From an uncultured bacterium (GTDB lineage Bacteria; Omnitrophota; Omnitrophia; Omnitrophales; Aquincolibacteriaceae): a stretch of 64,000 bases of DNA. A model generated the notes under the pieces. It saw only the letters and a list, made by a program, of their open reading frames with translations, did no database searches and was not told where the DNA came from. How positions within the stretch are numbered: the stretch's first letter is position 1; the number at the start of each line of letters is the position of its first letter. A program made the position numbers and the translations under genes. Location of the stretch: assembly GCA_964434115.1 (NCBI GenBank), contig CAYSSX010000001.1, positions 165,855 through 229,854 on the forward strand, read 5' to 3'. Positions 6,746 to 58,963 of this stretch are shown piece by piece.

Positions 6746-6796
6746 AATTCAGGGGTGTCAAATATCTTTTTTCCGCGCCCCCGCCTGTCATGCGGC

Positions 6797-6825
6797 TTGA
6801 CAGAAAATGCCGCTTCCACTATCGT
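6797..6825 (+). promoter_or_regulatory. Sigma70-like promoter (TTGACA-N17-TATCGT) for the GT2 gene, predicting a leaderless mRNA
   Basis: -35 TTGACA at 6797-6802, a 17-nt spacer, and -10 TATCGT at 6820-6825. The ATG at 6832 is about 7 nt downstream, so the transcript would begin at or next to the start codon. No Shine-Dalgarno motif is present. Confidence 0.4.
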
Positions 6826-6831
6826 TTCCCC

Positions 6832-26142: not shown

Positions 26143-26146
26143 GGGC

Positions 26147-27367: not shown

Positions 27368-27415
27368 GGCTTTGTCAGATCTTGAAGAGATCGGTTTGAA
27401 AAGGTTTCAGGGTGC

Positions 27416-30127: not shown

Positions 30128-30856
30128 TTAAACCTTGACCGGTTTTGACTTGAATTTGTGAGCGGAAAACCGCAGTTTCCAGACCATCCACAACGCTTCC
30201 CGGACAATGCGCCTGGAAATTTTCGAATCGCCGGAGGTTCTGTCCGTGAAGGTAATTGGAATTTCAAAAACACTGAATCCCTTCATCAGGGATTGAAACT
30301 TCATTTCGATCTGAAAGGAATAACCGTCAGAACGGATGGCGTCAAGGTCAAGGGCTTCCAGGACTTCCCTTCGGTAGGCCGTGTACCCGCCCGTCAGGTC
30401 GTGAATGGGAACCCCCAAAATGATCCGCGCGTAGATGTTGGCCAGGCGGCTGAGCAGAACGCGGCGCATGGGCCAGTTCGCGATTCTTCCGCCCTTCATC
30501 CAGCGGGAACCCGCGGCCACGTCATGCTGTTTTAAGGTTTCAAAAAAAGCCGGAAGATAGCGCGGGCGGTGGGAAAGGTCGGCGTCCATCTCAACGATGA
30601 CGTCGTAGTCGCCTTTCAAGGCCCATTTAAAACCCGCGATGTAGGCTGGGCCAAGGCCCATTTTTCCGGGCCGTTTCAGGAGATGGATGCGCTTGTTTTC
30701 AAGAGTCCAGGATTCGACCAGCGTTCCCGTGCCGTCCGGAGAGTTGTCATCCACCACCAGAACGTGGAGGTCTGGACTGAGGTTCATGAGGCGTCCCACA
30801 AGCTTGGGGATGTTTTCACGTTCGTTGTAAGTCGGAATGACAATCAAAGGTTTCAA
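30128..30856 (-). CDS. GT2 polyprenol-monophosphomannose synthase-like (Ppm1/DPM1 family)
   Basis: PTYNERENI, VDDNSPDG and EMDADLSH (DXD). It is soluble, 242 aa. Its ATG at 30856 overlaps the TGA of the GT-C gene upstream of it (ATGA). Confidence 0.85.
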   Translation of the reverse strand: MKPLIVIPTYNERENIPKLVGRLMNLSPDLHVLVVDDNSPDGTGTLVESWTLENKRIHLLKRPGKMGLGPAYIAGFKWALKGDYDVIVEMDADLSHRPRYLPAFFETLKQHDVAAGSRWMKGGRIANWPMRRVLLSRLANIYARIILGVPIHDLTGGYTAYRREVLEALDLDAIRSDGYSFQIEMKFQSLMKGFSVFEIPITFTDRTSGDSKISRRIVREALWMVWKLRFSAHKFKSKPVKV

Positions 30857-32343
30857 AGTTTTTCCTTCAGGTGATAAATCCGGAAATCAATTTCCTCAGA
30901 ATCTTCAAACGCGTAATGAGCGTTCATGTAGGCCGCGAAATCCGCCCTCTTTTCCAAAGCCGCCCTGTCGGAGACCACGAATTTTGAGGCCCCTTCGGAG
31001 CGCAGATGCTCAAGCCATGCCTGCGGGTCGCCGTACCCTTCAGCCTTCATCCGCTGGTGACGCGCCTGAGCCGTCATATTTTCAGGCGCCATGCCAAGGT
31101 CAAAGGGCCAGCCGCTGCGCCGGGTGTAATACAAAAGCTCCGGAGAAGTGCCGCTTTGGGCGATGACCCGGTCTTCAGGCTGAGTCCTCAGCTGAACCGC
31201 TTCACCCACGGCCGCAAGATGCCGGGCCCCGGCGCTGAAAGAGGCGCTTACAGGGGGAATATAATAGCGAAAGGAGGCCAGAAAAAACACCCCTAAAATT
31301 AGAAGGCCCCAGGATTTACGGCGCAAGGCCAGAAAATCGCTAAGCCCCGCGGCCGCCAGAACCGCGGCTCCCGGAATGGCGGCGATTAAATAAAAAGGAT
31401 GGTCATAAACTTTTTGCGGCAGAAGAAGCGCGGTGAACAACGGGCAAACGCAGGCTGCGGCCGCCAAAAGAACGGGCGGCCTTACTTTCCGGAAAGCACC
31501 GGTCAGCGCAAAAGGAACAAGCACAGGCGTGAGCCAAAGCGTAAAAATAATCTGCAGAAACCGCTGCAGAAAATCTTTTGAAAAAAGAAGAGACCGGCTC
31601 ATGACCCTTCCCTCGCCTGCCTGCATAAATAAACTGGTCATCACCGACTCCGGATGCGCGGTTTGGATCAAAGCCGTGCAGCCAAACCATAGGCCGGCCG
31701 GAAGCAGGACGCCAGCGCCAAAAAGGAAAAGCCTTTTCCACCTGCCGGTCTGTTGCAGCACCAGCGGAACAAGCATCACCGGGATCAGGAGGATAAAATG
31801 CAGGCGGGCCAGCAGGACAAGTGAAAAGAAAATTCCCGCGCCTAAGGCCGGAAAAAGTCCGGGGCGAAGGGCCAAGGCAAACGCGGACAAAAGGAAAAAT
31901 AAGGCAGCGGCCTCATTCTGAAGCGCGACTCCGTAAATCAGCGCCATGGGAGAAAAGGTGAAAAATAAAACCGCAAGAAAAGATTCCTGCTCCGAGAAAA
32001 ATTTCCGGGTGATTTTCCGGAGGAGCACGCCGGACCCTGCCATCCAAAGCGCGGCCTGCACGCGTCCCCAGAAATCGAGCGAAACCACGGGGATGAGGCG
32101 TTCTAAAAGTGCGGCGGCAAAACTTCCAAAAGGGTAATAAATGAGATGAAGGGCGGGTTTGCCATGCATCAGGATTTGGGTCTGCGGCGCGAGCCAGGCT
32201 TCCCAGCCGCCTTCGGTCATGGCGCGGGCCATCATGGCGTTGACGATTTGATAACTTCCGAAATGCCCGATCAAGGGGGCAGAAAAAAAAGGAATCTTGA
32301 TAAGAAAACCGCTGAGGATGGCAAGAATCCAGAGCTGCGGCAT
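30853..32343 (-). CDS. GT-C fold membrane glycosyltransferase, ArnT/PMT_2 (GT39-like) family
   Basis: 496 aa and polytopic. The R-x-FSEQESFLAVLFFTFSPMALIYGVALQNEAAALFF region matches the ArnT/Pmt loop-helix signature. Confidence 0.65.
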   Translation of the reverse strand: MPQLWILAILSGFLIKIPFFSAPLIGHFGSYQIVNAMMARAMTEGGWEAWLAPQTQILMHGKPALHLIYYPFGSFAAALLERLIPVVSLDFWGRVQAALWMAGSGVLLRKITRKFFSEQESFLAVLFFTFSPMALIYGVALQNEAAALFFLLSAFALALRPGLFPALGAGIFFSLVLLARLHFILLIPVMLVPLVLQQTGRWKRLFLFGAGVLLPAGLWFGCTALIQTAHPESVMTSLFMQAGEGRVMSRSLLFSKDFLQRFLQIIFTLWLTPVLVPFALTGAFRKVRPPVLLAAAACVCPLFTALLLPQKVYDHPFYLIAAIPGAAVLAAAGLSDFLALRRKSWGLLILGVFFLASFRYYIPPVSASFSAGARHLAAVGEAVQLRTQPEDRVIAQSGTSPELLYYTRRSGWPFDLGMAPENMTAQARHQRMKAEGYGDPQAWLEHLRSEGASKFVVSDRAALEKRADFAAYMNAHYAFEDSEEIDFRIYHLKEKL

Positions 32344-32348
32344 GGTTT

Positions 32349-33248
32349 TTAAGCCTTCCGGGCAATCAGGAGTACCCTGTTTTGCAGGCCGAGAAGCCGT
32401 GCCGCGAAAAAAAGGGTTCGAAGAAGAATCGAAGTCAGAGGGGTAAACCGGTAACGCGCGAGATCGGTTTCAGTTTTCCATACCCTCGCGGTTTGCAGGC
32501 CGGATTGCCGGACCAGCTTATCCAGAGTTTCGGTTCCAAAATAAGTCACATGCTCAAGGATGTAGAGCTTTTCAAGAGGCCCCGTGATTTTGCCGCCGCT
32601 GAGCGCGCAGGCTGTTTCCGCGATTACGGTCAGAAGATTCGGATACTGAGGCGTCGCGATCAACAGCAGTCCCCCGGGGGCCAGGAGTTTTTTCGCCTTT
32701 TCCACGAACAGCACGGGGTCCTGCGGATGTTCAATTAAATCCCACAAAACCACGCAGTCGTAAACGTCGTTCCCTGCCATTTCAAGAAACCCGCTGCAAA
32801 TCCCCTTAAGGCCTGCTTCGCGGACCGCGCGGATGTTGGCATCTCCGGAATCAACGCCCGTCACATCCCAGCCTTGGGTTGCCGCGAACTTTAAAAAAGA
32901 GCCTGTGCCGCAGCCGGCTTCCAAAAGCCTGCGGCCAGACGTGAGTTTTGAAGCCTCCGTCAGGGCTTTTGAGTAGTCAGCGTAAGTCCGGCTTTTGGGG
33001 TTCAGGGTTTCGTATTCATAATAATTTTCCAGCGCGGGGTTAATCTCTTTGAGAAGCTCGGGGTCGTTATAAAGAAGCATTTGTGAAGCGCCGTCGAGGG
33101 ACGGATCCACGTAGCGCAGTCCGCACGCCGGACAAATGTAAACCGAGAAATGACGGAGCTTGAACCGCGGATTTTTCGCGGCCGTGCTTTTGCAGGCCGG
33201 GCAATTTCCAAGACGCGTTAGATTCAGTTTTTGCCGGGCGTCGATCAT
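32349..33248 (-). CDS. Class I SAM-dependent methyltransferase with an N-terminal zinc ribbon
   Basis: CPACKS...CPACG and the LLEAGCGTGSF motif I; 299 aa. It is a paralog-like relative of 25285..26142. Confidence 0.75.
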   Translation of the reverse strand: MIDARQKLNLTRLGNCPACKSTAAKNPRFKLRHFSVYICPACGLRYVDPSLDGASQMLLYNDPELLKEINPALENYYEYETLNPKSRTYADYSKALTEASKLTSGRRLLEAGCGTGSFLKFAATQGWDVTGVDSGDANIRAVREAGLKGICSGFLEMAGNDVYDCVVLWDLIEHPQDPVLFVEKAKKLLAPGGLLLIATPQYPNLLTVIAETACALSGGKITGPLEKLYILEHVTYFGTETLDKLVRQSGLQTARVWKTETDLARYRFTPLTSILLRTLFFAARLLGLQNRVLLIARKA

Positions 33249-33290
33249 AGAGGCATCTTACGGGATTTTAGAAATCTGTAAAAGGAGCTT

Positions 33291-35144
33291 TTAAACCAGT
33301 TCATAGACCTCATACGAAAAAGCGGCCTCCACTTTGTTGACCGAAGTCAGGGCGTGGAGAAGACGCGTGTAACGGCCGTCTTGAAGAAGCCTGTCTACGG
33401 CCTCCGTCCGCTCAAGGTCTTCGGGTCGTGCCGGCACCGCAGGCCGCGAAACGGCAGGGACCGCCTTGAGAAGATGCGTAAACCCTTTTTCCTTCAAAAG
33501 CCGGCTGATTTCCTCCGCGGATTTTTTCTGAATTTCGGGGTGGCGTTTGATAAACCAGATGTTCCGTACCATTTCCCGTTCAAAATAAAATTGCCGGATT
33601 TCTTCGGCATTATAAATTTTGGCATTCTTCGGAAGGTTCTGATTCACCCAGGACGCGGCAGACCAGGAACGTTCGCGCATCAAAAGGTAGGCGTTTTTAT
33701 CGAATCCTGAGAGGTAGCGAAAAGCAAAGCGGTCGTGATAAAGCCCGGCAAGCATTAAAAGGGACACAAGTCCGGCGGCCGCTGCCAGAAAAACCGGACG
33801 AAATTTCACGCCCTGCGCGGAAATCAGGAAATCGTGGACTCCTCTTCCAGCCAGCATCACAAACACGGGGAATACGGGAAGCAGGAAGCGCGCGTTGTGG
33901 AAGAAACAAAACCAGACTGTGGTGTAAGCCCAGATAAAAAAGCCGTAAGGCCGCGCGTCCGGGTGCTTACGGACAGCGGCTAAAACAAAAGGCAGCGCGA
34001 GTAAATAAAAGGGGCCGGCCCAGTAACCCCGGTCATAACCGCCGGGGTTGACCGTCATAAAAAAAGGCAGCAGCAGATAATGAAGCAGGTCTTTGGGCGG
34101 CCCCATTTCCTGAAAGTGTTTCACGAAACTGAATTCCTGAGTGCCGAAAATCTGGCCGAGAAAGGGAAAAACCGGGTTTCCTGTCAAAATCCAGTTGCGG
34201 GCAAACCAGAACCCGCAGCCGGCCGTGAAGCCGAGTGAAAACCAAAGGAAGTTTTTCAGGCCTTCGCCCCAGCGGCAAGGCTTCAGGTTTTTCCAGATAA
34301 GAAGACCGGCATACGCAGGCGCGGCAATTAAAATCAGGATCTTGCAGCTTACCGCAAAGCCCCAGAACAAACCTCCAAGAAACAAAAGGCTGCGCCTGCG
34401 GTTTTCATTCTCCCGGCCCTGGACAGTCATCAAAACAGAAAGAAAAAGAAAAAGCGAGGCCCCCACATCGACATAGGTGGTCGGCATTTCATTGTAGACC
34501 GTGGGTGTTAAAAGAAAAATCAGGCCCAGAATCAATCCCGTCTTCCGGCTGGCACTGAACCGGGCCGTGCTGTCGATTACCAGGAGACAAAGGACCAGGC
34601 CTGTCCCCCAATGAAAGAGTTTGGCCAGCGGAACGCTCTTAAAAATCAGCGCCGTGGTGTAGAGCGTGTTAAGAAAAACCGGGAAATAAGAATTCAGGTC
34701 ATAGGGCTCCGGCCGCATGGAATGACGCCAGGCGAAAAACTTCGGAATGTTCAGCTGGTAACAAAGAGAGTCATTGGCGGTTTCGGGTACTGCGCAGAGG
34801 ACGAGGAGCAGTCCAAGGACAAAAAGCGTCACACACGAGGCGGTTTTTTCAACCGCGCTTTTTCCCGGAACCAAGGGTGAAAAGAAATCCCTCATTCCCC
34901 CCGCCAGCTTCAGCCGCGCCGCCAGCGCCGCGGCCAGAACAAGGAGAGGAAAACTTAAAATCAGAACCGGGGTCAAAAGTCCGGCATGGCCCAAAGCCGC
35001 TGTGAACAGGACGAAAAGGCCGCAGCCAAGGGTCCAGGAAACACACGCGCGCGTGACGGGCGGTAAAACGTCCAGATTCCGTGTGAATCCAAGCCCGGCG
35101 GCAAGAAACGAGAAAAAGAAAAGAGGAAACAAAAGTTCCGGCAT
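33291..35144 (-). CDS. Large polytopic membrane protein, putative GT-C-like glycosyltransferase
   Basis: 617 aa with about 12 N-terminal transmembrane segments and a C-terminal soluble domain. It is embedded among GT-C genes in the same operon. No specific family motif was recognised. Confidence 0.4.
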   Translation of the reverse strand: MPELLFPLFFFSFLAAGLGFTRNLDVLPPVTRACVSWTLGCGLFVLFTAALGHAGLLTPVLILSFPLLVLAAALAARLKLAGGMRDFFSPLVPGKSAVEKTASCVTLFVLGLLLVLCAVPETANDSLCYQLNIPKFFAWRHSMRPEPYDLNSYFPVFLNTLYTTALIFKSVPLAKLFHWGTGLVLCLLVIDSTARFSASRKTGLILGLIFLLTPTVYNEMPTTYVDVGASLFLFLSVLMTVQGRENENRRRSLLFLGGLFWGFAVSCKILILIAAPAYAGLLIWKNLKPCRWGEGLKNFLWFSLGFTAGCGFWFARNWILTGNPVFPFLGQIFGTQEFSFVKHFQEMGPPKDLLHYLLLPFFMTVNPGGYDRGYWAGPFYLLALPFVLAAVRKHPDARPYGFFIWAYTTVWFCFFHNARFLLPVFPVFVMLAGRGVHDFLISAQGVKFRPVFLAAAAGLVSLLMLAGLYHDRFAFRYLSGFDKNAYLLMRERSWSAASWVNQNLPKNAKIYNAEEIRQFYFEREMVRNIWFIKRHPEIQKKSAEEISRLLKEKGFTHLLKAVPAVSRPAVPARPEDLERTEAVDRLLQDGRYTRLLHALTSVNKVEAAFSYEVYELV

Positions 35145-37534
35145 TAAGCCTTCTTCCCCTTCAGATTAAAGAGCGAAGGGATGCTGTATTGAAAATTCAG
35201 ATAATAGGTTCCGGGCTGGTCGAGATAAACCGCTTGAAAAAGGCCGTAGGCCTTTTCGACCGGCTGTTTTTTGCCGTTCACCGTGACGCTCCATCCGGAA
35301 TCCCAGGTCTGCATCCAGACAAAAAAGCCGGGTTCGGATACCGCCACCTGCCACGCCTCATTCAACGGCGAGGCGGGAATGAAATGCTGAATCACAGGAC
35401 GGACCCCGGATGCGGATCCCCGGCCCGGTCCGCTTTCCGGGAAATTTCTTTCAAAAAGCACCACATCCCGGGGGTCATATTCCGCGCTCAGGAGGCGGTT
35501 TTTAATTTCCTGCCACGACATGTCTCCCCGGTACTGGGAAGTAAAAAAATACGGCGGGTAGGCCTGAAGATTGCGGTAAAGAAAATAGTCCGGTCCCTTG
35601 GAAAGAAGGTCGAGTTTGGGACTGCGCATTTCGGCCGTGGAAAGGATGTGGGAAACGCCCATGGCGGAAAGAAGCGGAATCCTTTCGGCAACAAAGCCCG
35701 GTGTCGGCGTTAAGGCTTGATTCGAATCATTGATGTTCCCGAATAACCCCAGGGTTTCGTAATACCGCCCGGAGATCAACGGGGAATACGCACCGATGTC
35801 TTCAATCCCAAGCAGCATATTGACACTGGGGACCGTCGGGAGAGATTCATCCGGTTTACGAAACCCGTAGAGCCGGTTCAAAAGACCTGCTGCCTGTTCT
35901 TTCTGAAGCGCCTGAATGGCGGGGTGATGAAGGTTCTCTTCAATTCTCGCCGTGGGCAGGAAATCGGTCCGCAAATCCCCGTAAGAAAAAACATAAAGAT
36001 CCAAAAGAATGAGAAGCCCTGCCGCGGGAATAAAAAAACGGCGGCCGCGGAAAAAAAGAACCAGAAGAAGCGACGCCGTGATGATGAGAAAAATCCAGAG
36101 GTTCCAGCTGTAGAGCGGAGAAAAAATCTGTGCCGCGTAATCCAGATAGGCGTTTAATTTCTCCATATAAAAGGACAGATCATGCGGGTGGCCGGGCTGA
36201 CCGAGAACGAATTTTTCAACAAGTCCCCGGCCCGCGTTCTCAAACGCTGAACGGTAATGACGAACCGCGAATCCGGCGGTAAACAAGGTCCCGGCAGCGC
36301 CGCCCAATAAGCATGCGAAGGCTGCGGCTGTCCCTTGTGTTTTCCGTTCCCGCCGGGCCTCTTCGATTCTGAGATAGGCCTCAAGCCCCGCGGCCGCTAG
36401 CATGGCAAAGGCGAAGTTGATAAAAACAAGGAACTTGGCCGGTGTGCGGAAGGCGTGAAAACCCGTCAGCTTAATGAGCCCCACATAAAGCGGACTCCAG
36501 CGTCCGAGCGCCATGAGCAGCGCGAAAATTCCCATCGCGGCCCAAAGCTTGAAGAAAAGACTTTTGCGGATTTCGGCACGGGAAAAAGCGATCGCGGCAA
36601 AAAAAAGCGGAAGGATTCCGTTGTACAGGCAATGCCCGCGGAACAGGCCCTGAAAATGCGGGAAAATCCAGGTTGAAAACACCAGGGGCGAAAGGGACCC
36701 CGCGTAAGCATAACCTTCCGCAGCGCCGGAGCGGTTAGAAGCCAGCGCCAGCGGATACGTCAGCAAAAGCTGGGGGAAAATTAAAAGACCGATTCCGAGA
36801 GCCGAAACAAACAAGCCCCCCAAGGTTTGATAAGGATAGTTGCGGAAATGCGGGGTTTCGTCGCGTAGAAAAGTAAGCCGGAGCAAGGTGTAAAAGAAAA
36901 CCATCAGTCCGCCCAGGACCGCGACTTGCAGATACCCTGCCACCATCGACAGCGCTCCTGCCGCGGCGAGTCCGGCCAGCGCGCTCCGCGTGCCCCGCTG
37001 CAAGTAGCGCTCCAGTTGAAACAGCATGAAAGGAAACCAGCACAGTGTTTTCAGGGAAGTGACGTTGTAATACGCCCCGCCATAAGCCGTGCCAAAGACA
37101 AAAAGGCATGCCCCGAGAAACGAGCTCATTTTTTTCATCCCCATTTCGCGAAGATAGGCGTACGTGCTCCATCCCCCAATCCAGAAATGAAGCGGCAGCT
37201 GCCAGGCAAAGGCCTGTTTGACCGGGAATAATCCGAAGAGCGCCAGGTTGGGAAGATAGAAAATCCCGATCTGGCTTTCCGCGGCAATGGGAAATCCGCA
37301 TTGGATAGCGGTCGTCCAAAGCGGAAGCATGCCCTGCTTAAGAGAGCTGGCGAGAAGCGCGGCCCAGGGGTAATGCTGCTCCCAATGATCGCCGACAAGC
37401 GGCGCGGAACGGGCCAGAAAAAGTTCCGGATAAAAACCAAACAGAAGCAGCGCAAAAGTTAACGGGAAAAACCATGCGGACTCCGTGAAGGTCAGGCTTG
37501 ATGTTTTGGACGCCCTGCTTTTTTTCGCGGTCAT
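35144..37534 (-). CDS. YfhO-family membrane protein (GT-C-like, lipid-linked sugar transferase candidate)
   Basis: 796 aa and polytopic. The C-terminal periplasmic domain (WDSGWSVTVNGKKQPVEKAYGLFQAVYLDQPGTYYLNF) resembles the YfhO family. Confidence 0.55.
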   Translation of the reverse strand: MTAKKSRASKTSSLTFTESAWFFPLTFALLLFGFYPELFLARSAPLVGDHWEQHYPWAALLASSLKQGMLPLWTTAIQCGFPIAAESQIGIFYLPNLALFGLFPVKQAFAWQLPLHFWIGGWSTYAYLREMGMKKMSSFLGACLFVFGTAYGGAYYNVTSLKTLCWFPFMLFQLERYLQRGTRSALAGLAAAGALSMVAGYLQVAVLGGLMVFFYTLLRLTFLRDETPHFRNYPYQTLGGLFVSALGIGLLIFPQLLLTYPLALASNRSGAAEGYAYAGSLSPLVFSTWIFPHFQGLFRGHCLYNGILPLFFAAIAFSRAEIRKSLFFKLWAAMGIFALLMALGRWSPLYVGLIKLTGFHAFRTPAKFLVFINFAFAMLAAAGLEAYLRIEEARRERKTQGTAAAFACLLGGAAGTLFTAGFAVRHYRSAFENAGRGLVEKFVLGQPGHPHDLSFYMEKLNAYLDYAAQIFSPLYSWNLWIFLIITASLLLVLFFRGRRFFIPAAGLLILLDLYVFSYGDLRTDFLPTARIEENLHHPAIQALQKEQAAGLLNRLYGFRKPDESLPTVPSVNMLLGIEDIGAYSPLISGRYYETLGLFGNINDSNQALTPTPGFVAERIPLLSAMGVSHILSTAEMRSPKLDLLSKGPDYFLYRNLQAYPPYFFTSQYRGDMSWQEIKNRLLSAEYDPRDVVLFERNFPESGPGRGSASGVRPVIQHFIPASPLNEAWQVAVSEPGFFVWMQTWDSGWSVTVNGKKQPVEKAYGLFQAVYLDQPGTYYLNFQYSIPSLFNLKGKKA

Positions 37535-39237
37535 GACGGACTGCCCTCAAGAAGTTCCAGCACCGGGCTTTTCCGTGAGCGGTCATAATAACCGCGGAAA
37601 TACAGGCGGCCAGGCATGGCCTTCATCAAAGCGGTGTTTTTTTCCGCGCCCAGATCATGGGCGTAAAGAATCCGTCCGTCCAGAAAAGGACTATTCCGCA
37701 CCGCGTCTTCCTCACCCATGACAAGTGTGTCTCCCAAAAATCCATGCACAAAAACAATGGAAGGCGTTTGAAGGTTTTTTTCAGCCAGCGCGTAAAGCGC
37801 TTTGCGTTCAGCCGCGGCCTTGCCATGAAAAGCCGCCTGCTTTTGAAACAGGAAACCCTGGGCAAAAAAAGAAACCAAGAGGACGGCGAAGAGACTCCCC
37901 CGCCACTCGGGCCATTTTTTCCAGAGCCCGAGAAGAGTGACTGCGGCGGTGACGGTTAAAAACGGAAAGGCTTCATAATAATACCGGGGTCCCCATTGGT
38001 TGCCGCCCCAGGAAAAATAAAGGAAGTACGCCAAAGCCAGGCTGACCGGGGCCAAACGGAAACTCTTTTGGAGCGGTGTGAGCTTGAACCCGCTGAAAAA
38101 AGAAAGAAAATAAAAAATCACGAGGGCCGGGGCGGTCCAATCCATGAGGTAAAAAATCCGGGCCGCGATAAACCAGAAACCGTCCAAGGGTGTGTAGTCG
38201 CTCCGGAAACCCAGACGTTCCCAGGATTTGTCAAATTGATTAGGCGCTTTAAAAGGTTTTCCGGAAATCGTGAAATTCTGCCAAAGAATCAGGATAAAAA
38301 AGATCAGAAGAACCGCGGCCGCCGCCATTTCGTCCCGGGTGAGGCGTCTGCGTTTTATGATTGTGGTCAGGGGCGGAATCAAAAAAGGCAGTGCCAAGGC
38401 CGCGGTCGTGAGATAGCGCGTCATGAGTCCGTAGCCTATGGCGGCGGCGCAAAGCATGGCCCAGCCGGTTTTTTGATCGTTCCCTGCCTCGTTCCACCGG
38501 AGGAAGCTGTAAAGAAAAAGAGAGGACATGAGAAGGGCCGCAGGGTGGGAAAAATAAGCCGCGCCCGTGAACAGGAAGAAAGGGGCCGTGAGCGCGAGAA
38601 GAAGTCCGAGGACCGCAGCGCTGCGGTCAAAAATCCGGCGCGCGGAAGCGAGAAAGAGCGGCAGGCTGAGGGCCGTCAAAACGGGATTCACCCAGTGGGT
38701 CAACCCTGCCGAAATTCCAAACGACCAGATCAGCGGCCAGCCCGGCGGATAAACACTGAACCATTTCCCCGCTTTGTTTCCAATATGGGTCACATTAAAA
38801 AATTCGGATAAGGCGTGCGGCGGCACCCACAATTTCCCTTTTCTCAGGCATTCGGCAAGAAAATAACAGGAATGTTCATCCGCGGAACTCATGAAACCGT
38901 GAAGCACGGCCTGATTGACCCCGTAAAGGACAAAGGCTGCGGCCGGCACTGCGGCAAAAGAAAAAAGCATGAAAAGCCCTTTGGGAAATTCGCCTTCCAA
39001 GGGATGCGTTTTGAAAAAGCCCGAAAGGAAAAAACCCAGAGCCGCGGCCAGAAGCGACAGTCCTAAGAAAAGCATGGCGTCAGAAGTGATGAAACTATGC
39101 CGGCCTAAAATGATTTCCCAGTTTGGGACCGACGGGCTCAGAACCGTGAAAAAGACTCCGGCAAGAGAAAGCACCGCAAGCAGAAATCCATTTTTTCCGG
39201 ATTTTTTTTTCTCAAGAAGATCCTTAGGCGTCATCAC
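37531..39237 (-). CDS. GT-C fold membrane glycosyltransferase, ArnT/PMT_2 (GT39-like) family
   Basis: 568 aa. An Asp-Glu pair (ADEH) lies in the first loop, and ArnT-like transmembrane architecture follows. The 4-bp overlap with the gene after it suggests translational coupling. Confidence 0.6.
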   Translation of the reverse strand: MMTPKDLLEKKKSGKNGFLLAVLSLAGVFFTVLSPSVPNWEIILGRHSFITSDAMLFLGLSLLAAALGFFLSGFFKTHPLEGEFPKGLFMLFSFAAVPAAAFVLYGVNQAVLHGFMSSADEHSCYFLAECLRKGKLWVPPHALSEFFNVTHIGNKAGKWFSVYPPGWPLIWSFGISAGLTHWVNPVLTALSLPLFLASARRIFDRSAAVLGLLLALTAPFFLFTGAAYFSHPAALLMSSLFLYSFLRWNEAGNDQKTGWAMLCAAAIGYGLMTRYLTTAALALPFLIPPLTTIIKRRRLTRDEMAAAAVLLIFFILILWQNFTISGKPFKAPNQFDKSWERLGFRSDYTPLDGFWFIAARIFYLMDWTAPALVIFYFLSFFSGFKLTPLQKSFRLAPVSLALAYFLYFSWGGNQWGPRYYYEAFPFLTVTAAVTLLGLWKKWPEWRGSLFAVLLVSFFAQGFLFQKQAAFHGKAAAERKALYALAEKNLQTPSIVFVHGFLGDTLVMGEEDAVRNSPFLDGRILYAHDLGAEKNTALMKAMPGRLYFRGYYDRSRKSPVLELLEGSPS

Positions 39238-40985
39238 AAGGGGTCCTTATCCAGAGAAAGCTTGTAAACTTCAAGAAGCGGGCCGGCCAGACGGCGGGCA
39301 CTTAACTCTTTGCTTAAAAAAGGCGCTCCGGTCATGGCGTAAGGATCAAAAGACGCGGCAATTAAAGAATCCCGGAAGGGCGTGAAACGGGCTACGGGCT
39401 CCAAAGCCGGAAGCGTTTTGAGAAATGCGGAAAGCCTCGCCTCATCATGGCCTCTTTCCACCACCACGTAGGAAATGCCCAGGCCTCGGAGTTTTTCAGC
39501 GTCATACGGCACGGGTTCAGGAGCCAGCACAAAAACCGGCCCGGGATTTTCATCGTGAGTGAGCTGGTACAGCCTGTAACCCGGCCGCTGGCCGGCCTTG
39601 TCCCAAAGAAATTGAAGACGTCTTTTCTGGACTTCAGGAAACGCGCCTGAAGATTCAATCCGGCTGAGTTTTTCCCGCAGGGAATCTTCGGACCAGGCAA
39701 GGCGGGGTCCGTAAAAAGGCACACTCAAAGCAACCCCCGAGTTTTTGGGAAGATGCCTTTCTATCCAGTTTTTTGCGTCTGTCCGGGTGTCCCCCGCTGT
39801 AAGAATGCCGCCCAGCTGAATGGATTTTTGAAGCGGCTGAAAAAGGGCTGCAAGCAAAAAGCCCGTGGTCAGAAGTGTTTTAAAAAACGGTTTCTGAACT
39901 GCCGCGGTTAAAGAGAAAATGGAATCCGCGGCAAAAAAGGCAATGAAAGGAGTGAGCGGGAGAGTGTAACGGTCATACAATTGTCCTCCCAGAACAAGAA
40001 CAACATAATAGGAAAGAACGAAAGACAGAAGAACAAAACGGGCCTTGATGGAAACCGGGGCTCCTTGGGGGCGGATTAAAGAGACCATTCCGGCAAGCGC
40101 AAACCCCAGCATCAGTGAGCCTGTCCCTTCCAGGGCTGAGTAAAGCAAGGGGTGCATCCAGGGAACTCCCCCGGCATGCGCGGCGCCTTCCGCCGCTAAC
40201 TCGTTGCAGAAAAACTGAAAATCAAGCGCGGCAAACGGGTTCAAAATAATAAAGACGGCCAAGGAACACAGGCCCGCTAAAAAAATTCCGGCGAGCGGAA
40301 TTTTCTTTGATTCAGCGGCTTGAAACAGGCACGCGGCCCCATAAGGCACGACGAGAAACACCCCGTTGTATTTGAAGGCCGCCGCGAGGCCTATCCAAAA
40401 ACCGCAAAGCAAATGCCTTTTCAGGGAAGAAGCTTCCGGCTTGGCGTCCAGCAGATTAAAAAAAGATCCCATGGCCGCGGTCAGAACAGCAAGAAGCGGC
40501 ATATCCGTGTAAATATAATGAGAGTCGCGCACATGAAGAAAACATACCGCGAGAAGTAAAGCCGCGGCCAAGGCCCTGCCCTCGCCAAAAATCCTCATGG
40601 TCACGCGGTACAGAAAAAAGATGCCAAGGACGCCGGGCAGAACACCGAGGACGACGCGCCCTATCCAATAAAACGCCGTGGGGTCCGAGTAAAAAAGCCG
40701 CTCAAAGTCAGACGGTGCGTAGAAAACCCCGGACAGCTTTCCCGCCAGAAAAAAAAGTCCGTAAAAAAGAAAAAGGAGGTAACTCGTGAGCGGCGGAATC
40801 CGGAAAAAATGCGGGTGAAGGTCGCCTGAGCCGTAAGCCAGGGCGTGATTGACGACAATGGGTTCATCCGCGTGATACAGGTCAGGCAGGCCGAAGGAGA
40901 TTCCCCAGATCCGAAGTGCGAATCCCAGGAGAAGAATGGCCGTTAAAGCAAGCGTGATTGAGCCCGAGGACCGGATTGAGTTCAT
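39234..40985 (-). CDS. GT-C fold membrane glycosyltransferase, ArnT/PMT_2 (GT39-like) family
   Basis: LYHADEPIVVNHAL DE-motif loop and R...F...A..LLLAV helix. The internal ATG at 40985 shares a base with the TGA of the GT2 gene (TGATG). The 32-aa extension in the track is spurious. Confidence 0.7.
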   Translation of the reverse strand: MNSIRSSGSITLALTAILLLGFALRIWGISFGLPDLYHADEPIVVNHALAYGSGDLHPHFFRIPPLTSYLLFLFYGLFFLAGKLSGVFYAPSDFERLFYSDPTAFYWIGRVVLGVLPGVLGIFFLYRVTMRIFGEGRALAAALLLAVCFLHVRDSHYIYTDMPLLAVLTAAMGSFFNLLDAKPEASSLKRHLLCGFWIGLAAAFKYNGVFLVVPYGAACLFQAAESKKIPLAGIFLAGLCSLAVFIILNPFAALDFQFFCNELAAEGAAHAGGVPWMHPLLYSALEGTGSLMLGFALAGMVSLIRPQGAPVSIKARFVLLSFVLSYYVVLVLGGQLYDRYTLPLTPFIAFFAADSIFSLTAAVQKPFFKTLLTTGFLLAALFQPLQKSIQLGGILTAGDTRTDAKNWIERHLPKNSGVALSVPFYGPRLAWSEDSLREKLSRIESSGAFPEVQKRRLQFLWDKAGQRPGYRLYQLTHDENPGPVFVLAPEPVPYDAEKLRGLGISYVVVERGHDEARLSAFLKTLPALEPVARFTPFRDSLIAASFDPYAMTGAPFLSKELSARRLAGPLLEVYKLSLDKDPL

Positions 40986-41698
40986 CAACGAAGGTGCATA
41001 AGGCGGATCTTCAAAATATCGAGAAACATCAGCATGGGGTCTAGCAGAAGGCGGACACGCGTCTGCGCCGAATGCCTCCACACCACGGGTTTCTCAAAAA
41101 CTTTGTAGCCGCATTTTTGCGCTAAATAAATGATTTCCACGTCAAAACTGAAACCCTCGATTTTTTGCAGGGTAAATAATTTGTGGGCCGCTTCCCTGCG
41201 AAAACACTTAAAGCCGCACTGGGAATCCTCAATGCCTTTGAAGGTCAAAAAACGGGCGATGCGGTTGAAGACCTTGCCCATCCACTCCCTGAAAAATTCC
41301 TGACGCACTTCAATCTTCGACCGGTCAAGCGCGCGGGAACCGATCACAACGTCCTGATCTTTTTTCAGAAGCTCAAGAAATCCCATGATTTCTTCGATCG
41401 GGGTCGAGAGGTCGGCATCGGAAAATAAAATATAATTTCCCCTGCCGGCAAGCATGCCCAGTTTAACCGCGTGGCCTTTGCCCCGGTTGGGACGGGTTTC
41501 GATGATTTTGTGCTCAATGTTCTGGAGACAGCGGCGGGCCACTTCGACGGTACCGTCGGAACTGCCGTCATCGGAAACAATGATTTCGTAGCGCAGCCCC
41601 TGCGAGTTCAGGAAATGGATAATCTCGCGAAGCGTTTTTTCAATGCGCTTCTCTTCATTGTATGCGGGGATAACGACGGAAAGGTCGAGTTCTGACAC
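40985..41698 (-). CDS. GT2 polyprenol-phosphate glycosyltransferase (ArnC/GtrB/dolichyl-phosphate glucosyltransferase-like)
   Basis: SVVIPAYNEE, SDDGSSDGT and SDADLS (DXD); 237 aa. Confidence 0.85.
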   Translation of the reverse strand: MSELDLSVVIPAYNEEKRIEKTLREIIHFLNSQGLRYEIIVSDDGSSDGTVEVARRCLQNIEHKIIETRPNRGKGHAVKLGMLAGRGNYILFSDADLSTPIEEIMGFLELLKKDQDVVIGSRALDRSKIEVRQEFFREWMGKVFNRIARFLTFKGIEDSQCGFKCFRREAAHKLFTLQKIEGFSFDVEIIYLAQKCGYKVFEKPVVWRHSAQTRVRLLLDPMLMFLDILKIRLMHLR

Positions 41699-58959: not shown

Positions 58960-58963
58960 GCAC

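What the first reader, a model, noticed from the sequence alone, without database searches (positions are those of the whole stretch)
30128..41698. Translationally coupled operon of two polyprenol-phosphate-sugar synthases and five GT-C-fold membrane glycosyltransferases
Gene order on the minus strand is GT2 (40985-41698), ArnT/PMT_2-like, ArnT/PMT_2-like, YfhO-like, large GT-C-like membrane protein, zinc-ribbon methyltransferase, ArnT/PMT_2-like, and GT2 Ppm1-like (30128-30856). Stop and start codons overlap at 40985 (TGATG), 39234-39237, 37531-37534, 35144 and 30853-30856 (ATGA). A GT2 that loads sugars onto undecaprenyl/polyprenyl phosphate, placed next to GT-C enzymes that use such lipid-linked donors on the periplasmic side, is the architecture of ArnC/ArnT (lipid A Ara4N), GtrB/GtrC (O-antigen glucosylation) and Ppm1/Pmt (actinobacterial protein O-mannosylation). 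Five distinct GT-C enzymes in one operon, in a diderm, suggests a multi-step periplasmic glycosylation machine whose acceptor is unknown. Candidates are protein O-glycosylation, lipid A or core decoration, or a surface-glycan side chain. I do not know of a described operon with this composition.
Basis: partly seen in the sequence, partly recalled or inferred. Interest (0 to 1): 0.75.

Follow-up and report, generated by a model that had tools for sequence, protein, structure and literature searches.

The report
Operon of five membrane sugar-transferases
An uncultured Omnitrophota bacterium carries a tightly packed operon with two enzymes that probably load sugars onto a membrane lipid carrier and five different membrane enzymes that probably move those sugars onto a cell-surface molecule outside the cytoplasm. 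Versions of this locus occur across the whole phylum, but its target molecule is unknown.

Summary
Eight minus-strand genes (30128-41698) encode GT2, GT-C, GT-C, YfhO-like GT-C, GT-C, zinc-ribbon methyltransferase, GT-C and GT2. Five of seven junctions overlap; the last is TTGA, not ATGA.

- **GT2s:** Both are closest to solved polyprenyl-phosphate glycosyltransferases (DPMS, ArnC, GtrB) and lack membrane helices.
- **GT-Cs:** All five membrane proteins are supported as GT-C by Pfam, profile comparison, or confident AlphaFold models matching only GT-C enzymes.

New findings:
- The organism is Candidatus Omnitrophota.
- The block sits in a roughly 45 kb minus-strand envelope-glycan cluster (LptD, Ugd, UDP-xylose synthase, nonulosonic-acid genes, Wzx, Wzy-like, two further DUF2079 GT-C genes).
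- A core of Ugd, UXS, GT2a, GTC1, YfhO-like and GTC4 recurs in dozens of Omnitrophota species, usually with 3-4 GT-C-type proteins.
- Both terminal pairs (GT2a-GTC1, GT2b-GTC5) exist elsewhere as single fused proteins.

Best reading: an expanded multi-component periplasmic glycosylation system without its own flippase. The acceptor is unresolved; LPS or a polysaccharide is favoured over protein. I rate it a new variant of a known kind, of moderate interest.

The parts
40985..41698 (-). GT2a: soluble or peripheral GT2 of 237 aa, a predicted polyprenyl-phosphate sugar synthase (Alg5/ArnC/GtrB-like). It is the partner of GTC1.
   Evidence: - PF00535 at 2.4e-30.
- Best solved relatives: P. furiosus DPMS 2.5e-20, ArnC 3e-16, GtrB 2e-15.
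- No TM segment.
- DAD motif D94-A95-D96 conserved in 57 orthologues.
- 56% identical over its full length to the N-terminal domain of the natural GT2-GT-C fusion P0110.
- A GT2a-type gene lies directly upstream of GTC1 in 38 of 56 species-level loci.
39234..40985 (-). GTC1: PMT/GT39-like GT-C glycosyltransferase of 583 aa, roughly 9 TM (crude hydropathy count), with a C-terminal periplasmic domain.
   Evidence: - PMT_2 at 8.7e-13 and PMT at 4.4e-8, both above cut-off.
- A profile of 35 orthologues hits yeast Pmt1 (6p25) at 1.2e-7.
- Invariant H38-A39-D40-E41-P42 in the first external loop.
- Orthologues in 76 genome loci, by record title mostly Omnitrophota.
37531..39237 (-). GTC2: PMT_2-type GT-C glycosyltransferase of 568 aa.
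   Evidence: - PMT_2 at 1.4e-8, 35.5 bits against a cut-off of 26.1.
- NCBIfam LA_3751/LA_3752 putative glycosyltransferase family at 2.8e-14, below its cut-off.
- Invariant D120-E121 motif.
- Only weak profile similarity to GTC1: 58% probability, E 1e-4.
35144..37534 (-). YfhO-like GT-C glycosyltransferase of 796 aa, with a C-terminal, mostly beta-strand periplasmic domain.
   Evidence: - PF09586 at 1.2e-6, 27.6 bits against a cut-off of 28.5.
- AF2 model with pLDDT 89.7.
- Foldseek: ArnT 6.9e-7, AftD, PglB, AftA.
- Invariant D49 in the motif GDHxEQHYPW.
- Present in 39 of 44 loci with enough downstream flank.
33291..35144 (-). GTC4: PMT_2-type GT-C glycosyltransferase of 617 aa.
   Evidence: - PMT_2 at 26.4 bits against a cut-off of 26.1.
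- NCBIfam LIC_10190 family at 4.5e-9, below its cut-off.
- Profile-profile comparison with GTC1: 98.4% probability, E 5e-15.
- Invariant D125.
- Present in 25 of 56 loci.
32349..33248 (-). Zinc-ribbon class I SAM methyltransferase of 299 aa, cytoplasmic. Its role in the pathway is not established.
   Evidence: - Methyltransf_23 at 1e-21.
- Conserved C16, C19, C39, C42 and GxGxG motif.
- No TM segment.
- A 25%-identical paralogue lies at 25285-26199.
- Homologues in 16 of 56 related loci.
30853..32343 (-). GTC5: GT-C-fold membrane protein of 496 aa from an unannotated family. It is the partner of GT2b.
   Evidence: - PMT_2 at only 20.6 bits, below cut-off; no NCBIfam hit.
- AF2 model with pLDDT 91.9.
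- Foldseek: STT3 8.8e-11, ArnT 1.6e-8 (TM 0.67), AglB, PglB, DPY19, ALG9/12, AftA/B/D.
- 290 50%-identity clusters at E<=1e-30.
- No conserved acidic residue in the first loop. Invariant residues include N143, E144, R180, K311 and D314.
- Fused to a GT2b-like domain in P0373.
30128..30856 (-). GT2b: DPM1/Ppm1-like GT2 of 242 aa with a TTG start, a predicted polyprenyl-phosphate hexose (mannose-type) synthase without a membrane anchor.
   Evidence: - PF00535 at 1.4e-29.
- P. furiosus DPMS 5mlz at 2.5e-37 over residues 1-228; ArnC at 1e-12.
- DAD motif D91-A92-D93 conserved.
- TTGA overlap with GTC5.
- 32% identical over its full length to the N-terminal domain of fusion protein P0373.
41730..42683 (-). 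UDP-glucuronate decarboxylase (UDP-xylose synthase), 31 nt upstream of GT2a. It is a possible donor-precursor supplier; this is inferred only.
   Evidence: - Human UXS1 (4gll) at 6.5e-101 over the full length, against ArnA at about 1e-24.
- A true orthologue lies within 10 kb upstream of GTC1 in 37 of 53 loci.
42712..44046 (-). UDP-glucose 6-dehydrogenase (Ugd), which makes the UXS substrate.
   Evidence: - All three UDPG_MGDP_dh domains, at 1e-67, 3e-38 and 9e-35.
- TuaD model at 544 bits, below its cut-off of 700; NDP-sugar dehydrogenase subfamily model above cut-off.
- Present in 34 of 56 loci.
44009..46303 (-). LptD (outer-membrane LPS insertase). It marks a diderm with LPS and is a conserved upstream neighbour.
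   Evidence: - LptD_N at 8.8e-8.
- Orthologues in related loci carry PF04453 LptD.
- Present in 24 of 56 loci, limited by the length of flank available.
7614..10885 (-). Two further GT-C-clan genes (DUF2079; 7614-9290 and 9254-10885) in the same minus-strand cluster.
   Evidence: - PF09852 at 3.7e-67 and 2.3e-52.
- 38% identical to each other.
- A DUF2079 homologue sits inside the GT-C block of 2 other loci.

Best explanation
The block is an expanded multi-component transmembrane (periplasmic) glycosylation system.

**Proposed steps**
- On the cytoplasmic face, the two anchor-less GT2 enzymes transfer a sugar from a nucleotide sugar to polyprenyl (undecaprenyl) phosphate. GT2b probably makes a mannose-type hexose-P-lipid. 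The sugar of GT2a is unknown. It may derive from the UDP-GlcA/UDP-xylose made by the adjacent Ugd and UXS.
- Each GT2 is probably held at the membrane by its partner GT-C (GT2a with GTC1, GT2b with GTC5). The partner genes are translationally coupled here and fused into one polypeptide in other organisms.
- After the lipid-linked sugar is flipped by a protein not encoded in the block, the five GT-C enzymes transfer single sugars to an acceptor on the periplasmic face.
- GTC1, GTC2, the YfhO-like protein and GTC4 would use conserved Asp/Glu residues in their first external loop. GTC5 lacks such a residue there.

**Acceptor**
I favour LPS or the polysaccharide made by the surrounding cluster (about 0.45) over proteins (about 0.25) or a separate lipoglycan (about 0.15).

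**Shown versus inferred**
- Shown: gene content, folds, homology, motifs, synteny and fusions.
- Inferred: enzyme activities, donor sugars, GT2/GT-C docking, acceptor, and co-transcription.
For: - **GT2 homology:** best solved relatives are polyprenyl-phosphate glycosyltransferases, with conserved DAD motifs.
- **Catalytic motifs:** conserved first-loop acidic residues in four of five.
- **Rosetta-stone fusions:** P0110 is GT2a plus GTC1 (56% and 41% identity). P0373 is a GT2b-like domain plus a GTC5-family domain. A YfhO+GT2 fusion, P0242, also exists.
- **Packing:** overlapping stop and start codons at both pairs.
- **Conservation:** GT2a-type gene directly upstream of GTC1 in 38 of 56 species-level loci; YfhO-like in 39 of 44; 3-4 large polytopic proteins per locus is typical.
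- **Envelope-glycan context:** LptD, Ugd, UXS, nonulosonic-acid genes, Wzx, Wzy_C/O-antigen-ligase-like genes, an SGNH/AlgX-like gene and ADP-heptose genes. SGNH/AlgX-like homologues lie in the GTC1 locus of 15 other loci, directly downstream of GTC1 in the examples listed.
- **Precedent:** anchor-less GT-A enzymes working with a separate membrane protein, Wzx-type flippases, and systems with more than three components are described in PMC8035078.
Against: - No enzyme activity, lipid intermediate, transcript or glycan was measured.
- No GtrA, SMR or MATE flippase lies in the block. The only candidates are a Wzx-like gene 9 kb away and an LPG_synthase_TM gene 21 kb away.
- GTC5 lacks the usual first-loop acidic residue and could be non-catalytic or use another site.
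- NCBIfam equivalog models for ArnC, PgfS, AglJ and PpgS all score far below their cut-offs, so donor sugars are unassigned.
- LptD/Ugd adjacency may only reflect a conserved chromosomal backbone. The upstream GGDEF genes and an ABC ATPase are syntenic too, which weakens the LPS inference.
- The GTC1 profile's only solved-structure hit is a protein O-mannosyltransferase; it did not reach ArnT.
- YfhO-family enzymes can glycosylate proteins (PMC12041528).
Confidence: 0.7

Rival explanations
1. Protein O-glycosylation machine. GTC1 (PMT-like) and the YfhO-like enzyme would transfer sugars from polyprenyl-phosphate donors onto Ser/Thr of secreted or membrane proteins, as in actinobacterial Ppm1/Pmt or streptococcal PgfS/PgfM and GtrB/PgtC2. 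The other GT-Cs would extend the glycan.
For: - GTC1 passes the Pfam PMT cut-off, and its profile hits only yeast Pmt1 among solved structures.
- It carries an invariant DE motif like that of PMTs (the PMT DE motif is from established knowledge).
- GT2b is DPM1/DPMS-like.
- YfhO-family GT-Cs glycosylate Ser/Thr-rich regions in streptococci (PMC12041528).
- The core is conserved across a phylum, unlike typical strain-variable O-antigen decoration.
Against: - The DPM1-like GT2b is coupled to GTC5, not to the PMT-like GTC1.
- No candidate acceptor protein gene lies in the block.
- The block is embedded among polysaccharide/LPS genes: Wzx, Wzy_C, nonulosonic acid, and an SGNH/AlgX-like O-acetyltransferase-type gene.
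- The PMT_2 and PMT families also contain lipid A and polysaccharide transferases, so the family does not fix the acceptor.
Confidence: 0.25
2. Arn-like lipid A or core modification by the conserved module Ugd-UXS-GT2a-GTC1. UDP-GlcA would be decarboxylated to a UDP-pentose, loaded on undecaprenyl phosphate by GT2a, and transferred by GTC1 to lipid A or core. This is a sub-hypothesis of the best explanation and concerns one of the two pairs.
For: - The gene order Ugd, UXS-type decarboxylase, GT2, GT-C mirrors PmrE/ArnA/ArnC/ArnT.
- A true UXS orthologue lies upstream of GTC1 in 37 of 53 loci, and Ugd is in 34 of 56.
- ArnC is the top NCBIfam match of GT2a.
- LptD is the next gene upstream.
- The cluster's DegT aminotransferase scores best against the ArnB model (408 bits).
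Against: - The SDR is a UXS (6.5e-101 to human UXS1), not ArnA-like (1e-24).
- No formyltransferase, ArnD deformylase or ArnE/F genes were seen in the window ORFs scanned with Pfam.
- GT2a scores 70.7 bits against an ArnC cut-off of 529.
- The aminotransferase lies 14 kb away beside NeuB and PseG-like genes, and also matches PseC.
- No polyprenyl-phosphate xylose donor was found in the literature searched.
- GT2a-GTC1 occurs without a nearby UXS in 16 of 53 loci.
Confidence: 0.2
3. Periplasmic assembly line for a separate lipid-anchored glycan. Several GT-Cs would act in sequence, using polyprenyl-phosphate sugars to build or elongate a glycan de novo on the outer face of the inner membrane. 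This resembles mycobacterial LM/LAM (PimE, MptA-C, Aft/Emb) or the ER-lumenal ALG steps.
For: - Five non-paralogous GT-Cs lie in one block, with two more DUF2079 GT-C-clan genes nearby.
- There are two different donor synthases.
- The best structural neighbours of the YfhO-like protein are the arabinofuranosyltransferases AftD and AftA.
- A multi-GT-C battery is the phylum norm.
Against: - No primer-forming or anchor-forming gene was identified in the block.
- Nothing distinguishes sequential elongation from independent decoration.
- The surrounding cluster already has Wzx/Wzy-type machinery for a conventional polymer.
Confidence: 0.15
4. Not one functional unit. The genes would be neighbours through compact genome packing and inherited synteny, the GT-Cs would serve unrelated pathways, and some (for example GTC5) could be catalytically inactive.
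For: - Overlapping junctions are common throughout this cluster, not only in the block.
- GTC2, GTC5, GT2b and the methyltransferase are found in only a minority of related loci.
- A 42-nt gap with two weak promoter-like matches splits the block.
- GTC5 lacks the first-loop acidic residue.
Against: - The two GT2/GT-C pairs recur as fused proteins.
- GT2a, GTC1, the YfhO-like protein and GTC4 co-occur across many species.
- Promoter-like hits are no more frequent than in shuffled sequence, and all terminator-like hits fall inside coding sequence, none in an intergenic gap.
- GTC5 has many invariant polar residues, which implies selection.
Confidence: 0.1

Closest known systems
Three-component / multi-component transmembrane glycosylation systems (GtrA/B/C; CsbB/GtcA/YfhO; GacI/J/K/L; Citrobacter GT136 system). 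Sources: PMC8035078, PMC11127046.
   Same: - A GT2/GT-A enzyme makes a polyprenyl-phosphate monosaccharide, and a polytopic GT-C transfers it outside the cytoplasm.
- A YfhO-type member is present.
- An anchor-less GT-A variant and a possible Wzx-type flippase both have precedents.
   Different: - Five non-paralogous GT-Cs and two synthases sit in one block instead of one of each.
- No GtrA, SMR or MATE flippase gene lies in the block.
- Neither synthase has TM helices or a small GacJ-like partner; instead each pairs with, or elsewhere is fused to, a GT-C.
- A methyltransferase is included.
- The core is conserved across a phylum rather than being serotype-specific.
Arn pathway (Ugd/PmrE, ArnA, ArnB, ArnC, ArnD, ArnT, ArnE/F) for lipid A aminoarabinose.
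   Same: - The gene logic is the same: Ugd, a UDP-GlcA decarboxylase, a GT2 and a GT-C, in a diderm.
- ArnC is among the best matches of both GT2s, and ArnT is among the best structural matches of GTC5 and the YfhO-like protein.
   Different: - The decarboxylase is a true UXS, not ArnA.
- No formyltransferase, deformylase or ArnE/F genes were seen.
- All Arn equivalog scores are far below their cut-offs.
Rhizobium/Mesorhizobium Rgt system (RgtE GT2; RgtA, B, C, D and F GT-C galacturonosyltransferases acting on LPS core and lipid A). Source: PMC7663294 and established literature.
   Same: - One lipid-linked donor synthase serves several GT-C enzymes that decorate LPS core and lipid A.
- The pathway depends on a UDP-GlcA-derived sugar.
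- From my own knowledge, the Pfam PMT_2 family that matches GTC1, GTC2 and GTC4 is named RgtA/B/C/D-like in InterPro.
   Different: - The Rgt GT-Cs are related ArnT-like paralogues, whereas these five are mutually dissimilar.
- No UDP-GlcA 4-epimerase was identified here.
- Direct sequence comparison with Rgt proteins was not possible with the tools.
Actinobacterial Ppm1/Pmt protein O-mannosylation and the LM/LAM GT-C set (PimE, MptA-C, AftA-D, EmbA-C).
   Same: - GT2b is an anchor-less DPM1/Ppm1-type synthase.
- GTC1 is PMT-like with a DE motif.
- Many GT-Cs draw on shared polyprenyl-phosphate donors.
   Different: - The host is a diderm Omnitrophota.
- The DPM1-like synthase pairs with GTC5, not with the PMT-like enzyme.
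- No Lnt-like Ppm2 anchor is present.
- Sequence identities to the solved enzymes are only 9-15%.
Streptococcal Pgf (PgfS, PgfE, PgfM1, PgfM2) and GtrB/PgtC2 protein glycosylation. Source: PMC12041528.
   Same: - One operon holds a GT-A synthase plus more than one YfhO-type GT-C.
- PgfS is the second-best NCBIfam match of GT2a.
   Different: - The Pgf system is in Gram-positive hosts, and its operon also encodes the adhesin substrates.
- Only YfhO-type GT-Cs are involved there.
- GT2a scores 67 bits against a PgfS cut-off of 500.
Eukaryotic ER-lumenal N-glycan steps (DPM1, ALG5 synthases; ALG3/9/12/6/8/10 GT-Cs).
   Same: - Two lipid-phosphate-sugar synthases, one DPM1-like and without a TM helix, feed a series of distinct GT-C enzymes.
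- ALG9 and ALG12 are among the structural matches.
   Different: This is an analogy of logic only. There is no sequence-level orthology, no OST-type oligosaccharyltransferase gene in the block, and no evidence of sequential assembly.

Membership tests
Multi-component (three-component) transmembrane glycosylation system | A GT-A/GT2 enzyme that makes a polyprenyl-phosphate monosaccharide | tested here: met
   Met by homology only. The closest solved relatives of both GT2s are DPMS, ArnC and GtrB, and the DAD motifs are conserved. Activity was not measured.
Multi-component (three-component) transmembrane glycosylation system | A polytopic GT-C-fold transferase with an acidic motif in an extracytoplasmic loop | tested here: met
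   GT-C is supported for all five. Four of five have a conserved first-loop Asp or Asp-Glu. GTC5 has none there.
Multi-component (three-component) transmembrane glycosylation system | A dedicated flippase (GtrA, SMR, MATE or Wzx type) encoded with the system | tested here: not met
   The eight genes leave gaps of at most 42 nt, so there is no room for another gene. Candidates exist only at a distance: Wzx-like at 19339-20862 and LPG_synthase_TM at 63120-63950. The latter type lies in the GTC1 locus of 5 other loci.
Arn (lipid A L-Ara4N) pathway | ArnA-type bifunctional decarboxylase/formyltransferase | tested here: not met
   The SDR at 41730-42683 is a UXS (6.5e-101 to human UXS1, against about 1e-24 to ArnA). 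It has 317 aa and no formyltransferase domain.
Arn (lipid A L-Ara4N) pathway | ArnC and ArnT equivalogs | tested here: not met
   GT2a scores 70.7 bits and GT2b 50.7 bits against an ArnC cut-off of 529. No ArnT NCBIfam hit was found for any GT-C.
Arn (lipid A L-Ara4N) pathway | ArnB aminotransferase | tested here: inconclusive
   The DegT protein at 26147-27367 scores 408 bits on ArnB (cut-off 631) and 361 bits on PseC (cut-off 423). It lies beside NeuB and PseG-like genes.
Ppm1/Pmt protein O-mannosylation (GT39) | A DPM1-type polyprenyl-phosphate mannose synthase | tested here: met
   Met by homology. GT2b matches P. furiosus DPMS at 2.5e-37 over residues 1-228. Sugar specificity was not tested.
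Ppm1/Pmt protein O-mannosylation (GT39) | A PMT-family GT-C with a DE motif in loop 1 | tested here: met
   GTC1 scores 33.4 bits on PF02366 (cut-off 22.7). Its profile hits Pmt1 at 1.2e-7. D40-E41 are invariant.
Ppm1/Pmt protein O-mannosylation (GT39) | Ser/Thr protein acceptors; synthase and PMT act as a pair | not testable with these tools
   The acceptor cannot be read from sequence. Gene coupling and fusions pair GTC1 with GT2a and GT2b with GTC5, which is not the expected Ppm1-Pmt pairing.
YfhO family (PF09586) | Pfam gathering score for the whole protein | tested here: inconclusive
   The score is 27.6 bits against a cut-off of 28.5, covering residues 25-605. Many orthologues, and the identical database entry, carry a precomputed PF09586 hit. 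The fold is GT-C.
Rgt LPS galacturonosylation system | Sequence relationship to RgtE and RgtA-F, and a UDP-GalA supply (UDP-GlcA 4-epimerase) | not tested
   No Rgt reference sequences or models were available in the tools. Ugd is present, but the adjacent SDR is a decarboxylase.
GT-C superfamily | GT-C membrane fold, shown by structure or profile | tested here: met
   - GTC5: pLDDT 91.9; the first 45 PDB hits are all GT-C-fold membrane proteins, and 28 reach E<=1e-3.
- GTC1, GTC2 and GTC4: supported by Pfam and profiles.

The most novel reading that the evidence does not exclude
Omnitrophota may share a conserved envelope-glycosylation pathway with three unusual features.
- Anchor-less DPM1/Alg5-like synthases would work as physical complexes with specific GT-C transferases. 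In some lineages they are literal fusions.
- Making the lipid-linked sugar on the inside would then be coupled to using it on the outside without a dedicated flippase, perhaps with the GT-C partner assisting translocation.
- One donor would be a previously undescribed polyprenyl-phosphate pentose (xylose or a derivative) made from the Ugd/UXS product.

The battery of 3-7 GT-Cs would build a conserved periplasmically assembled LPS-core or lipoglycan structure.
Probability: 0.15. Interest if true: 0.7.

Novelty: new variant of a known kind. Interest (0 to 1): 0.5.

Why it matters
Omnitrophota are abundant, mostly uncultured, very small bacteria, many thought to depend on hosts or prey. Their surface chemistry is essentially unknown.

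- **A defined starting point:** A locus recurring in dozens of Omnitrophota species with up to five or seven GT-C enzymes and two lipid-sugar synthases points to substantial glycan chemistry on the outer face of the inner membrane. It gives a defined gene set for heterologous reconstitution.
- **A testable mechanism:** The synthase/GT-C fusions suggest physical coupling between donor synthesis and donor use. This bears on the long-standing question of how polyprenyl-phosphate sugars cross the membrane.
- **A possible new donor:** If GT2a uses a UDP-GlcA-derived pentose, this would add a new lipid-linked donor.
- **If none of this holds:** The locus is still a useful but ordinary addition to the known family of multi-component glycosylation systems.

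Tried and rejected
- **Exact look-ups:** Look-ups of GTC1 and the YfhO-like protein by translated window coordinates found nothing, although identical proteins are in the homology database. Cluster look-up gave no accession or name.
- **PDB sequence searches:** Single-sequence searches for GTC1, GTC2 and GTC4 found nothing meaningful. Profiles of GTC2 and GTC4 also found nothing. Only the GTC1 profile reached Pmt1.
- **NCBIfam:** It could not assign a donor sugar to either GT2, because all equivalog scores are far below their cut-offs.
- **Promoters and terminators:** The promoter-like count did not exceed shuffled controls, and the terminator-like hits all fall inside coding sequence; the scan cannot settle operon structure.
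- **AFDB fold library:** It was unavailable.
- **Literature:** Searches found no description of this locus or of a polyprenyl-phosphate xylose donor.
- **Recent paralogues rejected:** The five GT-Cs are not recent paralogues, as they show no significant pairwise BLAST similarity.
- **Horizontally acquired island rejected:** GC content of the block is 0.52-0.545 against 0.49-0.57 elsewhere in the window, and the core is syntenic across the phylum.
- **Rare GTC5 family rejected:** The word-indexed search found 19 homologues, but the exhaustive search found 290 clusters at E<=1e-30.
- **Arn operon membership rejected:** See the membership rows.

Full report
**1. Observation**

The eight minus-strand ORFs exist at the stated coordinates. 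The junctions, read directly, are as follows.
- GT2a/GTC1 is TGATG at 40983-40987.
- GTC1/GTC2 is GTGA at 39234-39237, with an ATG immediately after.
- GTC2/YfhO-like is ATGA at 37531-37534.
- YfhO-like/GTC4 is TAATG at 35142-35146.
- GTC5/GT2b is TTGA at 30853-30856.
- The remaining two junctions are gaps of 42 nt and 5 nt.

Purine-rich SD-like stretches precede six of the eight starts. Such overlaps are also frequent among the flanking genes. They indicate compact operon packing rather than anything special. A promoter/terminator scan found no more promoter-like sites than in shuffled sequence, and the terminator-like hits all lie inside coding sequence. Two weak promoter-like matches lie in the 42-nt gap. 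Co-transcription is therefore plausible but unproven.

**2. What the proteins are**

The two GT2s:
- Both hit PF00535 strongly, at 2e-30 and 1e-29.
- Their closest solved relatives are all polyprenyl-phosphate glycosyltransferases. For GT2a these are P. furiosus DPMS (2.5e-20), ArnC and GtrB. For GT2b it is DPMS at 2.5e-37 over almost its full length.
- Both are short (237 and 242 aa) and have no TM helix. The solved DPMS, ArnC and GtrB chains are 322-374 residues long. From established knowledge, this resembles human DPM1 and mycobacterial Ppm1 catalytic domains.
- DAD motifs are conserved in orthologues.
- NCBIfam equivalog models (ArnC, PgfS, AglJ, PpgS and others) all score far below their cut-offs, so the sugars are not assignable.

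The five membrane proteins:
- GTC1 passes both PMT_2 and PMT. GTC2 passes PMT_2. GTC4 just passes PMT_2.
- The YfhO-like protein is 0.9 bit under the PF09586 cut-off, and GTC5 is clearly below the PMT_2 cut-off.
- I modelled the two weakest with alignments of homologues. The GTC5 model (pLDDT 91.9) matches STT3, ArnT (TM 0.67), AglB, PglB, DPY19, ALG9/12 and AftA/B/D.
- A GTC1 orthologue profile reaches yeast Pmt1 at 1.2e-7. The GTC4 and GTC1 profiles are homologous at 98.4% probability. GTC2 against GTC1 is weak, at 58%.
- The five share no significant pairwise BLAST similarity, so they are distinct families rather than recent duplicates.
- Conserved acidic residues lie in the first external loop of four of them: GTC1 D40-E41, GTC2 D120-E121, YfhO-like D49 and GTC4 D125.
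- GTC5 has none there (its motif is GHFGSYQ). Its invariant polar residues include N143, E144, R180, K311 and D314.

The methyltransferase is a cytoplasmic class I enzyme with a four-Cys zinc ribbon.

**3. Context in the window**

The block is the middle of a minus-strand cluster running from about 1480 to 46303.
- Upstream lie LptD, UDP-glucose 6-dehydrogenase, and a bona fide UDP-xylose synthase (6.5e-101 to human UXS1, against about 1e-24 to ArnA).
- Downstream lie a CMP-sugar-type cytidylyltransferase, a PseG-like protein, NeuB, a DegT aminotransferase, a paralogous zinc-ribbon methyltransferase, a GT1/glycerophosphotransferase-like protein, Gfo/Idh, GNAT and SDR genes, and a Wzx-type flippase.
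- Further downstream lie a 4,6-dehydratase, a hexapeptide acyltransferase, UDP-GlcNAc 2-epimerase, a GT4, Wzy_C-like proteins, a CDP-alcohol phosphatidyltransferase, an SGNH/AlgX-like protein, and two DUF2079 GT-C-clan proteins.
- ADP-heptose-type genes and an LPG_synthase_TM protein lie further upstream.
- GC content of the block is unremarkable.

The organism is therefore a diderm with LPS. The block sits among genes for a Wzx/Wzy-type surface polysaccharide containing a nonulosonic acid.

**4. Organism and conservation**

Named homologues are from Candidatus Omnitrophota, apart from one YfhO-like hit labelled Verrucomicrobiae. Identical proteins come from a 517,562-bp NCBI contig. A related species (68-84% identical proteins) has the identical gene order.

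A scan of one genome per species with a GTC1 profile returned 76 loci; by record title most are Omnitrophota, the rest 'uncultured bacterium' or, in a few cases, other phyla. Among the 56 species-level loci of at least 12 kb:
- a GT2a-type gene is present in 49, and directly upstream of GTC1 in 38;
- a YfhO-like gene is in 39 of the 44 loci with enough downstream flank;
- Ugd is in 34, GTC4 in 25 and LptD in 24 (limited by flank length);
- GT2b is in 22, the methyltransferase in 16, GTC2 in 10 and GTC5 in 7.

A true UXS orthologue lies within 10 kb upstream of GTC1 in 37 of 53 loci. Counting large polytopic proteins within ±10 kb of GTC1 gives mostly 3 or 4 and at most 5. A multi-GT-C battery is thus the phylum norm, and this genome is at the upper end.

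Homologues of the window's SGNH/AlgX-like protein and of an unknown 254-aa protein (6697-7461) lie in the GTC1 locus of 15 and 11 other loci, directly downstream of GTC1 in the examples listed. LPG_synthase_TM homologues lie in the GTC1 locus of 5. The window's arrangement therefore looks like a rearranged version of a common gene set.

One caveat applies. The upstream GGDEF genes and an ABC ATPase are also syntenic. LptD adjacency may therefore reflect a conserved chromosomal backbone rather than function.

**5. Fusions**

- P0110 (863 aa) is GT2a (56% identity over all 236 residues) fused to GTC1 (41% identity).
- P0373 (737 aa) is a GT2b-like domain fused to a GTC5-family domain. The GT2 domain is 32% identical over its full length and scores 94.7 bits against GT2b, compared with 69.3 bits against GT2a. 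The GT-C domain matches at 6e-60.
- A YfhO+GT2 fusion, P0242, also exists, with the GT2 at the C-terminus.

Both gene pairs at the two ends of the operon are therefore translationally coupled here and covalently joined elsewhere. This is the strongest evidence that each GT2 supplies, and probably docks on, its neighbouring GT-C. It would also explain how TM-less synthases reach the membrane.

**6. Mechanism**

The best-supported model has three steps.
- GT2a and GT2b make polyprenyl-phosphate monosaccharides at the cytoplasmic face.
- An unidentified flippase moves them across the membrane. None is in the block, and only Wzx and PF03706 candidates are nearby.
- The five GT-Cs transfer the sugars to an acceptor on the periplasmic face.

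This is the logic of the three-component or multi-component systems reviewed in PMC8035078 and PMC11127046, which explicitly allow anchor-less GT-A enzymes and Wzx-type flippases.

Donor identity is inferred. GT2b is DPMS-like and so probably uses mannose or another hexose. The sugar of GT2a may derive from the adjacent Ugd/UXS products, an Arn-like logic. However, all Arn membership features that were tested failed or were inconclusive, and no polyprenyl-phosphate xylose precedent was found.

The acceptor is unresolved.
- The polysaccharide/LPS context and the SGNH/AlgX-like partner favour a glycan or LPS.
- The GTC1 profile's only solved-structure hit is a PMT, and protein glycosylation by YfhO-type enzymes in streptococci is proven (PMC12041528). 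Protein O-glycosylation therefore stays open.
- Sequential LAM-like or ALG-like assembly is also possible.

**7. Novelty and score**

No paper in the searchable library describes this locus. Conceptually it belongs to a known kind of system, and multi-GT-C precedents exist (Rgt, per PMC7663294; mycobacterial Aft/Emb/Mpt; Pgf).

The differences are these:
- the number and diversity of GT-Cs in one block;
- two anchor-less synthases, each paired or fused with a specific GT-C;
- no flippase gene in the block;
- recurrence of the core across dozens of Omnitrophota species;
- a conserved link to Ugd and UXS.

I rate it a new variant of a known kind, with interest 0.5. It is still notable because of the fusion and docking evidence and the open questions of donor and acceptor.

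Noticed in passing
window 7614-9290 and 9254-10885 (minus strand): Two DUF2079 (PF09852, GT-C-clan) membrane proteins, 38% identical to each other, lie in the same minus-strand cluster. This brings the GT-C-type count to seven. They are flanked by an SGNH/AlgX-like gene (10878-11972) and a CDP-alcohol phosphatidyltransferase (11969-12811).
   Followed up: partly
window 26147-30121 (minus strand): A nonulosonic-acid-type gene set lies directly downstream of GT2b: CTP_transf_3 cytidylyltransferase, a PseG-like 378-aa protein (no Pfam hit; TIGR03590 at 1e-13), NeuB, and a DegT aminotransferase that scores better on the ArnB model than on PseC. NeuB has only 278 aa, and its matches to the NeuB_NnaB and PseI models stop at about position 272 of 327-329, so the C-terminal part of those models is missing.
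   Followed up: partly
window 56302-59055 (minus strand): ADP-heptose-type genes are present: a PfkB kinase, a protein joining a cytidylyltransferase-like domain to a TMP-TENI (thiamine-phosphate synthase) domain, and a SIS/GmhA-like isomerase. The cytidylyltransferase+TMP-TENI combination is odd.
   Followed up: no
window 63120-63950 (minus strand): An LPG_synthase_TM (PF03706) membrane protein lies here. Homologues lie in the GTC1 locus of 5 other Omnitrophota loci, so it is a candidate flippase or accessory membrane partner.
   Followed up: partly
window 46316-49119 (minus strand): Two tandem GGDEF diguanylate cyclases lie immediately upstream of LptD; their homologues in related loci pair a GAF+GGDEF protein with a GGDEF-only one. 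This GGDEF-GGDEF-LptD-Ugd order recurs in many Omnitrophota loci.
   Followed up: partly
L001/L006 8804-11299 (related species, contig CAYRBY010000021.1): The YfhO-like gene is split into two ORFs (460 and 269 aa) separated by about 300 nt. This could be a frameshift, a pseudogene or an assembly error in the otherwise fully syntenic relative.
   Followed up: no
P0110 (L002/L003 10001-12592), P0373, P0242: Natural single-polypeptide fusions of a GT2 synthase domain with a GT-C exist for three different GT-C families (GTC1-type, GTC5-type and YfhO-type). In P0242 the GT2 is C-terminal, which needs an extra membrane crossing to be cytoplasmic.
   Followed up: partly
window 6697-7461 (minus strand): A 254-aa protein with no Pfam hit has homologues (E 1e-34 to 1e-42) in the GTC1 locus of 11 other Omnitrophota loci, directly downstream of GTC1 in several. 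It is an uncharacterised conserved member of the gene set.
   Followed up: no
window 23400-25298 (minus strand): A 632-aa protein has a C-terminal region matching GT1, CDP-glycerol glycerophosphotransferase and capsule-synthesis families (BFO_1060 family domain). The first roughly 380 residues matched none of the listed Pfam or NCBIfam families.
   Followed up: no
window 1480-2709 and 12814-14244 (minus strand): Two Wzy_C-domain proteins are present (1e-27 and a weak 1e-5), of O-antigen ligase or polymerase type. No homologues were found in the ±10 kb GTC1 loci of other species.
   Followed up: partly
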